Part shown: positions 4,356 through 58,468 of the stretch, one piece after another
How positions within the stretch are numbered: position 1 is the first letter of the stretch
Layout: each line of letters begins with the position of its first letter
Program-made: the position numbers and the translations under genes
Notes under the pieces: model-generated
Database searches by the model: none
What the model saw: only the letters and a program-made list of their open reading frames with translations
What the model was told of the DNA's origin: nothing
NCBI GenBank assembly: GCA_964016885.1
Contig: OZ024748.1
Span: 13,144,001 to 13,208,000, forward strand
DNA: 64,000 bases
DNA from: Eledone cirrhosa
Taxonomy: Eukaryota
Direction of reading: 5' to 3'

Positions 4356-4758
4356 TTTATTTATTTTTTTTTTTAATTCATTATATTTATTATTTTTATT
4401 TTTATTTTTATATATTTATATTCATTTATTTTTTATTTATTTTGATTTTATGTGTTTTATGTTTTGGTTTATATATTTTTATTAGTTTTTGTTGTTTTTT
4501 TTCCTATAGGAAATCTCAGATTTAGCGATCGGAACTAATCACGATTGACGTGGTTTCAAGGTGTGTGTCTGTGTGTGTGTCGGTGTGTATGTGTGAGTGT
4601 GTGTGAATGTGTGTGTATGGGTGTGTGCTTCGGTGTCACTGTGGGGCTATACCTGTGCCTCTACCTGGATACATGCACAGACACACACACACATACACAC
4701 ACACAAACACACATATAGAGACATGTATATATATATATGTATGTGTATATATATGTGA

Positions 4759-38100: not shown

Positions 38101-38286
38101 TATATACATATATACATGCGTCTACTGATTGATTTACTCTGCTATATCAAGCGTTAACCTAATATATACCTTCCATATACTGTACCGATTGTGGTGTTAT
38201 TTCTGTTTAACTTTTACTTATATACAACCTCCAACCGTCAAGGTTGTTATTCTGCGGGTGTGTCAACATTTATAAAACAAATTTTG

Positions 38287-38352
38287 TATTTTATCTGATG
38301 AAAGCGCACCAAAATTTGCCTCGGTTGCCCTTGAAATATATATAATAAAATA
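38287..38352 (+). ncRNA. Minimal type I hammerhead motif with intact core, family G
   Basis: TATTTTAT-CTGATGA-AAGCGCACC...GGTTGCCCTT-GAAA-TATATA-TA-ATAAAATA: perfect 8 bp stem I, palindromic stem III. Confidence 0.75.
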
Positions 38353-38487
38353 ATTATGGTTTTATAAATATAGTTTCCATTTATTAATATAATGTATATA
38401 TATATATATTATAGATTGAGTTATAAACTCGAAATAGTCTTTTACAATTAAATAGCTCAAAGAAGGGAATGTTTCCGAGCGGTGTAA

Positions 38488-38629: not shown

Positions 38630-38775
38630 AATAAAAAAAGATGAAATCGAAAATGCAACTGGAGTCTTATTTTTAAAAAAAATATATATATTTATTTGGT
38701 TCCTTTACTGGTTTCGCAGTTCTTCTGCTTTTCAAAAGTAGAGTTGAGATGGATGGTCTGTGGTTTTTCTCACAT
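38630..38775 (-). mobile_element. Family F element with U3-A8 HHR (38702-38738)
   Basis: Minus: CTT-TTGAAAA-GCAG AAGAA CTGC-GAAA-CCAG-TA-AAGG; close homologue of the 57.3-57.9 kb copies. Confidence 0.75.
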
Positions 38776-57208: not shown

Positions 57209-57905
<697 letters not shown>

Positions 57906-58055: not shown

Positions 58056-58057
<2 letters not shown>

Positions 58058-58468
58058 AAAGTTATATTTAAATTGTTGGGTTACAACTAGTAAATATTTA
58101 TAACTGATATAAAAGCACTCAACAAGTATTTGGAGTATATTTACGATATTAAATAAATGGAAACTATATTTATAAAACCATATTTATTTCATTATATATA
58201 TTTCAGGGATATCATATTAACAATATGTTATGCCTTCTTCAGACAAAATACAATATAGACAGTTTTATAGATAAATAGATTTGACATACCGTTCAACATC
58301 GACTTGTATTTGAAAAATCAACTTTTTCAAATACAAGTCGATGTTGAACGGTATGTCAAATCTATTTATCTATAAAACTGTCTATATTGTATTTTGTCTG
58401 AAGAAGGCATAACATATTGTTAATATGATATCCCTGAAATATATATAGTTTCCATTTATTTAATATCG

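What the first reader, a model, noticed from the sequence alone, without database searches (positions are those of the whole stretch)
38287..38352. Family G: hammerhead whose stem III and cleavage site are themselves a (TA)n repeat
Seen: perfect 8 bp stem I (TATTTTAT/ATAAAATA), intact CTGATGA and GAAA, then TATATA-TA. The 58.2 kb relative keeps the flanks and core (CTGAAGA) but has a different stem II sequence that still pairs (AGG..CATATT/AATATG..CCT vs AAG.GCACC/GG.TGC.CTT), a natural covariation. Inference: self-cleavage would leave an RNA 3' end of ...AUAUAUAUA, complementary to (TA)n DNA. That offers a direct mechanism for priming reverse transcription at (TA)n targets.
Basis: partly seen in the sequence, partly recalled or inferred. 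Interest (0 to 1): 0.75.

Follow-up and report, generated by a model that had tools for sequence, protein, structure and literature searches.

The report
Penelope retrotransposon hammerhead with TA palindrome
This is a real self-cutting-RNA motif in the end repeat of a known kind of jumping gene, but its TA stretch likely just lets two such motifs pair up, because over 99% of the copies join their TA target 50 or 141 letters past the predicted cut rather than at it.

Summary
The motif is as described and beyond chance: a type I hammerhead at 38287-38352, predicted cut after 38344, with stems I and II covarying across families. It lies in the pseudo-LTR of a Hydra-clade Penelope-like retrotransposon; a full copy elsewhere in the genome has ribozyme - RT/GIY-YIG ORF - ribozyme.

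The proposed priming mechanism fails its own test. About 9-10 of 2,608 family copies end in (TA)n at the cut. None of 30 copies picked by upstream sequence alone does. Ends fall mostly at +50 or +141, each 7 nt before a small hairpin, matching the internal initiation published for an anole Penelope element.

Related hammerheads in the genome (7,264 motif hits) mostly carry other palindromes such as ATGATCAT, yet the copies inspected still end in (TA)n; 25 published Hydra families target (TA)n or are unassigned and none has a TA stem III. The TA stretch is therefore most likely the usual self-complementary dimerisation stem. About 48,000 such motifs exist here. A rare side route (0.4% or less) is not excluded, and cleavage is untested. 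The scan already reported this clade, its C-C mismatch and the twin hairpins on other DNA of this genome.

The parts
38226..38394 (+). 5'-truncated pseudo-LTR fragment (169 bp) of a Hydra-clade Penelope-like element (family G), short 3' end at +50 from the cut
   Evidence: shared block starts at query base 97 = 38226; same sequence flanks the ORF in L061
38287..38294 (+). hammerhead stem I, 5' strand
   Evidence: covariation
38295..38301 (+). catalytic core CUGAUGA
38302..38332 (+). stem II: 3 bp, C-C mismatch (38305/38329), further helix, loop
38333..38336 (+). core GAAA
38336..38343 (+). 8-nt self-complementary stem III / loop 3 (ATATATAT); predicted dimerisation helix
38343..38344 (+). UH site; predicted cut after 38344 (cleavage untested)
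   Evidence: canonical hammerhead numbering applied
38345..38352 (+). hammerhead stem I, 3' strand
38395..38409 (+). (TA)n target at the true 3' junction, 50 nt past the cut
   Evidence: the same junction occurs 1,955 times in the genome, sister subfamilies included
58056..58468 (.). inverted pair of a sister family: minus copy with the long tail, plus copy with the short end, fold-back near 58320, both outer ends in (TA)n
   Evidence: this family's ORF is 65-85% identical to family G's over the tblastn pieces in L246-L250
58390..58447 (+). mirror copy of that hammerhead lacking 28 bp behind the TA loop (stem I 3' strand lost; ATATA microhomology at the break)
   Evidence: read from the sequence

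Best explanation
The motif is the type I hammerhead in the pseudo-LTR of a Hydra-clade Penelope-like retrotransposon, its TA stretch is a palindrome that likely lets two ribozyme copies of a tandem transcript pair into the active dimer, and the element's inserted copies end 50 or 141 nt past the predicted cut, so reverse transcription likely starts inside uncut or re-ligated RNA. Shown: motif, covariation, pLTR-ORF-pLTR context, junction positions, non-TA palindromes in related hammerheads. Inferred: the GIY-YIG endonuclease nicks (TA)n; the DNA 3' end primes RT at one of two internal sites, each 7 nt before a small xCTC...GAGx hairpin; copying runs back through the intact ribozyme and usually stops early, giving short or mirrored copies; cleavage, if it occurs, serves to cut tandem transcripts to unit length.
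For: Context: L061 has a hammerhead at 958, ORF pieces from 1202 to about 3270 on the same strand and a second hammerhead at 4634, unit 3,676 bp. Protein motifs RWR, SDKT, YRDD, CNCx5C, VYK..YVG, CxxC and CxH fit the Hydra clade definition (PMC8557442 section 11). Junctions: 20 vs 2,588, 9-10 true ends; 0 of 30 unbiased copies end at the cut, 14 end at +141-145, 9 at +47-50; 1,955 junctions at +50 and 720 read-throughs into the tail. All families: 390 (control 82) of 48,207 (control 127) motifs continue as TA. Loop: 7,264 hits (control 17) with a non-TA loop; by eye 74 of the first 100 read TGATCATA, 78 are perfect palindromes, 97 keep the outer G-C; most of 30 such loci end in (TA)n at about +50-60 or +190-220. 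None of 25 published Hydra families in File S2 has a TA stem III, while the metadata list (TA)n for nearly all. Energy: closing the monomer stem III costs about 2.9 kcal/mol; the 8-bp intermolecular duplex gives -3.2. Hairpins start at +58 and +149 in L061. Precedent: two internal RT starts and cleavage not needed (PMC11167929); palindromic helix III and dimer activity (PMC4209133).
Against: No cleavage, dimer or RNA data for this family. The TA duplex is the weakest perfect palindrome tested (-3.2 vs -7.0 to -7.2 kcal/mol), so dimer activity may be poor. TATATATA is kept across families whose stems I and II differ and dominates the genome (48,207 vs 7,264); a pure palindrome rule does not explain that, and common descent was not tested by a tree. 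9-10 copies do end at the cut against 1 at a nearby imperfect TA site (different denominator). I could not tie the TGATCA family to an ORF of its own, so it is shown related by RNA architecture only. The ORF has no Pfam hit above cut-off and no PDB hit. The 7-nt hairpin register was measured in one full copy only.
Confidence: 0.85

Rival explanations
1. One reading: self-cleavage exposes ...AUAUAUAUA, which anneals to nicked (TA)n DNA and is the main start point of reverse transcription.
For: The complementarity is real; the element targets (TA)n; a conceptual precedent exists in Terminons, where a telomeric stretch next to a hammerhead pairs with the target (PMC6431247 passage).
Against: At most 10 of 2,608 family copies and at most 390 of 48,207 motifs fit; 0 of 30 unbiased copies; non-TA loops also end in (TA)n; cleavage dispensable in the anole element.
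Confidence: 0.02
2. Minor route: a small share of transcripts is cut and primed at the TA end, giving the few copies that stop at the cut.
For: 9 copies end cleanly at the cut against 1 at the imperfect TATA site at +22.
Against: A perfect (TA)4 would also attract internal priming without cleavage, deletion to the (TA)n flank 50 or 141 nt away, and secondary insertions; L033 has a foreign insert inside the TA loop and the window's 58.4 kb copy has a microhomology deletion there.
Confidence: 0.15
3. Circular template: the dimeric ribozyme cuts unit-length RNA, a host ligase closes it, and RT starts inside the circle and reads through the re-sealed cut; more than one turn makes the pseudo-LTR. 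This is a sub-case of the best explanation with an essential role for cleavage.
For: Read-through of the cut in over 99% of copies is what a circle predicts; proposed for PLEs in PMC4209133 and shown for retrozymes in PMC7229834 (passages); core and TA loop vary less than upstream sequence among 30 copies (1.7-3.4% vs 6.3%).
Against: An uncut tandem transcript predicts the same junctions, and sufficed in vitro for the anole element.
Confidence: 0.25
4. The motif no longer cleaves and is kept as a protein-binding or structural element.
For: The isolated motif does not fold as a hammerhead in the lowest-energy structure; PLE hammerheads cleave weakly in vitro and the anole one only with protein.
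Against: Core letters are invariant and both stems covary across families; the loop stays self-complementary when it changes.
Confidence: 0.12

Closest known systems
Hydra clade of C-terminal EN+ Penelope-like elements (Craig et al. 2021, PMC8557442; section 11, search passages and supplement parts 2-3 read), e.g. Hydra-1_Obim, Hydra-2_Amil
   Same: Single RT + C-terminal GIY-YIG ORF with DKT, CxCx5C, CxxC and CxH, no CCHH; sense-strand hammerhead near the 3' end; (TA)n targets; inverted truncated copies.
   Different: Unit is 3.7 kb with a 3' UTR of about 1.2 kb (published: mostly under 3 kb); RWR instead of RWK; stem III plus loop is an 8-nt perfect palindrome where the published ones are 9-10 nt and none is a TA repeat; stem II is long with a C-C mismatch; not the same family as Hydra-1_Obim, whose hammerhead differs.
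Poseidon element of Anolis carolinensis, PAc (Frangieh et al. 2024, PMC11167929; parts 1-2 of 4 read)
   Same: Two fixed 3' ends downstream of the hammerhead cut, defining an optional tail; start site not homologous to the target (at the short end the RNA has A where the junction has T).
   Different: Different clade; tail about 91 nt and upstream of the start codon here, 30-40 nt and inside the ORF there.
Metazoan type I hammerheads with a weak palindromic helix III (Cervera and de la Pena 2014, PMC4209133, parts 1-2 of 4; 2020, PMC7229834, passages)
   Same: 1-2 bp helix III closed by a palindromic tetraloop, read as a dimerisation helix; tens of thousands of dispersed copies from truncated elements.
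   Different: Here the palindrome happens to be (AT)4, equal to the target repeat.
Terminon/Athena 3' ends (PMC6431247 passages only; the 2017 primary paper not read)
   Same: The idea of a hammerhead-associated stretch that pairs with the target repeat.
   Different: There the repeat lies downstream of the ribozyme at the element's end and the element lacks an endonuclease; here the repeat is inside the ribozyme and junctions lie elsewhere.

Membership tests
Type I hammerhead ribozyme | CUGANGA and GAAA core with UH site in type I order | tested here: met
Type I hammerhead ribozyme | Stems I and II supported by compensatory change | tested here: met
   12 of 14 pairs change on both sides, 0/500 shuffles reach the score; rows are related families and were hand-picked
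Type I hammerhead ribozyme | Self-complementary helix III / loop 3 | tested here: met
Type I hammerhead ribozyme | Self-cleavage | not testable with these tools
   needs a bench assay
Penelope-like element, EN+ | One ORF, RT followed by GIY-YIG endonuclease, flanked by pseudo-LTRs | tested here: met
   L061 (ORF broken in that copy); continuous RT-to-EN frames in L176 and L180; 59 homologs, up to 39% identity over most of the length. Domain names rest on motifs; Pfam gave no hit above cut-off
Penelope-like element, EN+ | Inverted truncated copies with a tail at one end only | tested here: met
   18 of 23 divergent pairs are short + tail (rough: includes duplicated loci and a few mis-paired or mis-typed rows)
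Hydra clade | DKT instead of DKG | tested here: met
   SDKT in L061-L064
Hydra clade | RWK motif | tested here: inconclusive
   RWR in family G; RWK or RWR in the homologs
Hydra clade | CxCx5C linker; CxxC and CxH around the conserved E and N; no CCHH | tested here: met
Hydra clade | Insertion into (TA)n | tested here: met
Hydra clade | Groups with Hydra RTs in a tree | not tested
   published reference proteins were seen in the supplement and compared by eye only
Terminon-like target pairing at a hammerhead end | Element 3' junction coincides with the target-complementary stretch | tested here: not met
Non-LTR retrozyme | Short non-coding tandem units of 170-400 nt | tested here: not met
   the family's unit is 3,676 bp and coding

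The most novel reading that the evidence does not exclude
These Hydra-clade elements cut their tandem transcript through a palindrome-paired ribozyme dimer, copy a re-sealed circular RNA, and start reverse transcription from both nicked DNA strands at two points measured 7 nt in front of twin RNA hairpins; a rare side route (0.4% of copies or less) primes at the freshly cut TA end.
Probability: 0.22. Interest if true: 0.55.

Novelty: new member of a known kind. Interest (0 to 1): 0.27.

Why it matters
The attractive claim, a ribozyme that manufactures its own primer-binding end for a microsatellite target, would have given Penelope hammerheads a long-sought function; the genome rules it out as the main route. 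What remains useful: thousands of natural insertions extend to the Hydra clade the internal-initiation result so far shown in vitro for one Poseidon element, with start sites known to the base; and natural loop variants (ATATATAT, ATGATCAT, ATGTACAT, ATGCGCAT) give a ready series for testing the dimer model of Penelope hammerheads.

Tried and rejected
Rfam scan: only microsatellite-driven miRNA hits among the rows listed. Single-strand folding: no stability signal, as expected for a dimer-dependent motif. 5' ends at the cut: 54 matches of (TA)6 directly before the 3' strand of stem I; of 30 viewed, 12 still have the ribozyme upstream, 2 are local tandem duplications, 1 follows a foreign insert, 15 have no element upstream in view; too few, against over 2,588 read-through copies, to mark the cut as a preferred 5' boundary. 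Microhomology as the rule for start sites: 4 nt (ATAT) at the long end, but a mismatch at the first base of the short end, so not sufficient. Expression: no RNA holder listed; one run of contigs of unrecorded kind showed loose ends behind +38 to +47, none listed at the cut, with 151 rows not shown. Pfam and PDB: nothing usable for the ORF. An ORF for the TGATCA family: none in L244 or L245; the Hydra-type ORF in L210 is separated from that hammerhead by TA tracts and other sequence. Literature: six searches showed no paper describing a TA-repeat stem III or cleavage-primed insertion at (TA)n; the library lacks most subscription journals, Repbase was not searchable, and only parts 2-3 of 59 plus term searches of the one supplement were seen. 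The host species was not determined; the word 'octopus' was a guess from recall about TA-rich 3-Gb genomes.

Full report
Observation. By standard hammerhead numbering stem III is two pairs closing an AUAU loop and the cut falls after 38344. A strict descriptor finds this motif and the relative at 58242 (minus strand), and nothing in 100 block-wise dinucleotide shuffles. Fourteen hand-picked copies from several families align without trouble: 12 of 14 pairs change on both sides, 91% of cells pair, 0 of 500 shuffles reach the covariation score and slid controls drop to 30-50% paired. A C-C mismatch after the third pair of stem II is invariant in those 14 rows. The lone RNA does not adopt the fold at minimum energy.

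What carries it. The window comes from a 3.0-Gb genome; the motif belongs to a dispersed repeat with many mirrored pairs. Walking upstream reached a GIY-YIG-type reading frame on the same strand. L061 holds a whole unit: hammerhead at 958, ORF pieces from 1202 to about 3270, a long AT-rich UTR, hammerhead at 4634; unit 3,676 bp. Other copies give continuous RT-to-endonuclease frames. The protein shows RWR, SDKT, YRDD, CNCx5C, VYK..YVG, CxxC and CxH and lacks CCHH. These are the marks of the Hydra clade of Penelope-like elements, nearly all of which insert in (TA)n and carry canonical hammerheads (PMC8557442 section 11; supplement). Pfam and PDB gave nothing above cut-off; 59 mostly unnamed homologs were found. 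The 58.2-kb relative belongs to a sister family whose ORF pieces are 65-85% identical. The window copy is a 169-bp 5'-truncated piece of the pseudo-LTR (38226-38394).

Test of the priming model. If the cut end primed reverse transcription, copies would end at the TA loop. The family-specific pattern followed by more TA occurs 20 times, followed by stem I 2,588 times. Of the 20, ten are TA expansions that still read through, nine end there and one is ambiguous: 9-10 of 2,608. Thirty loci picked only by sequence upstream of the ribozyme give 14 ends at +141-145, 9 at +47-50, 3 at +22 (near-identical duplicates), one each at +28 and +116, one running on into the ORF, one interrupted at the loop by a foreign insert and then continuing, and none ending in (TA)n at the cut (a few loci are partners of one insertion). 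The +50 junction occurs 1,955 times and read-through into the tail 720 times, sister subfamilies included. Over all families, 48,207 motifs have GAAA-TATATATA (control 127) and 390 continue as TA (control 82). The model fails as the main route. Against a complete dismissal: an imperfect TA site at +22 gave only 1 junction (different denominator), so the loop may be a slightly favoured end, though microhomology alone would do that.

Why TA then. A search for the same architecture with a loop forced away from TA at two positions gave 7,264 hits (control 17). By eye the first 100 read TGATCATA 74, TGTTCATA 11, TGTGCATA 7, TGTACATA 2, TGCGCATA 2, other 4: the two free positions are G and C in 97, and 78 are perfect palindromes. 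Most of 30 such loci also end in (TA)n, about 50-60 or 190-220 nt past the cut. I could not link that family to its own ORF. In the published table none of 25 Hydra families has a TA stem III. The monomer hairpin costs about 2.9 kcal/mol, while two copies can form an 8-bp duplex (-3.2 kcal/mol for the TA loop, about -7 for the others). This is the known dimer design of metazoan type I hammerheads (PMC4209133; PMC7229834 passages). Unexplained: why the weakest palindrome is kept across families with different stems I and II and outnumbers the others about seven to one; shared descent is the simplest reason and was not tested.

Likely mechanism. Inferred steps: the endonuclease nicks (TA)n; the DNA end primes RT inside the RNA at +50 or +141; copying passes back through the intact ribozyme and mostly stops early. 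Divergent pairs are short + tail in 18 of 23 rough cases, the window's 58-kb pair among them. At the short end the RNA has A where the junction has T, so pairing alone does not set the start. This parallels the anole element, which starts at two internal sites, does not need cleavage, and whose ribozyme cuts only with protein (PMC11167929). A re-ligated circle would give the same junctions and is not excluded.

Novelty and verdict. A new family of a known clade with a known ribozyme design; the TA identity of the loop is a curiosity without a demonstrated role. Six literature searches showed no description of a TA stem III, within a limited library. The preprint 10.64898/2026.07.22.740005 (part 1 of 5 read) adds only that retrozymes derive from such repeats. 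Earlier notes of this scan on other DNA of this genome already cover the clade, the C-C mismatch, the asymmetric ends and the twin hairpins; none overlapped this place. Interest 0.27.

Noticed in passing
window 38036-37996, minus strand: Another type I hammerhead-like motif (CTGATGA, short stem II, GAAA, CATTGTT loop, 3-bp stem I) 250 bp from the finding; its 9-nt stem III resembles the published Hydra ones more than the TA loop does.
   Followed up: no
window 47048, minus strand: Hammerhead-like motif of a third family (CTGATGA, 4-bp stem II, GAAA-CGTT); the repeat at about 38139-38222, just upstream of the finding, looks like the tail of this family.
   Followed up: no
window 58440-58448: The plus copy of the inverted pair lacks 28 bp starting at or near the predicted cut; ATATA microhomology makes a plain deletion or template jump the simplest reading.
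   Followed up: partly
L033 (G000:C1:359232283-359235399), L222: A roughly 190-bp foreign repeat is inserted inside the hammerhead's TA loop with a duplication of the loop, so the loop can itself serve as a target.
   Followed up: partly
L220, L240: Local tandem repeats of the segment from the cut to the +50 end, joined through (TA)n; may be template jumps via TA microhomology.
   Followed up: no
L244 (G000:C1:24253500-24259000): Two TGATCA-loop hammerheads 3,102 bp apart on one strand with no tblastn match to the family G protein between them; possibly a non-autonomous family or two separate insertions.
   Followed up: partly
L210:1000-1240, minus strand: A Hydra-type ORF (RWK, DKT) begins just behind a GCTC...GAGC stem like the one at +149 in family G.
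   Followed up: no
window 57400-57640 and 57775-57905; 38630-38775: Further inverted repeats of an unrelated dispersed family with both ends in (TA)n.
   Followed up: no
P0040, P0056, P0058: Homologs of the element's ORF carry misleading database names (an inositol kinase, a GATA zinc-finger protein).
   Followed up: no
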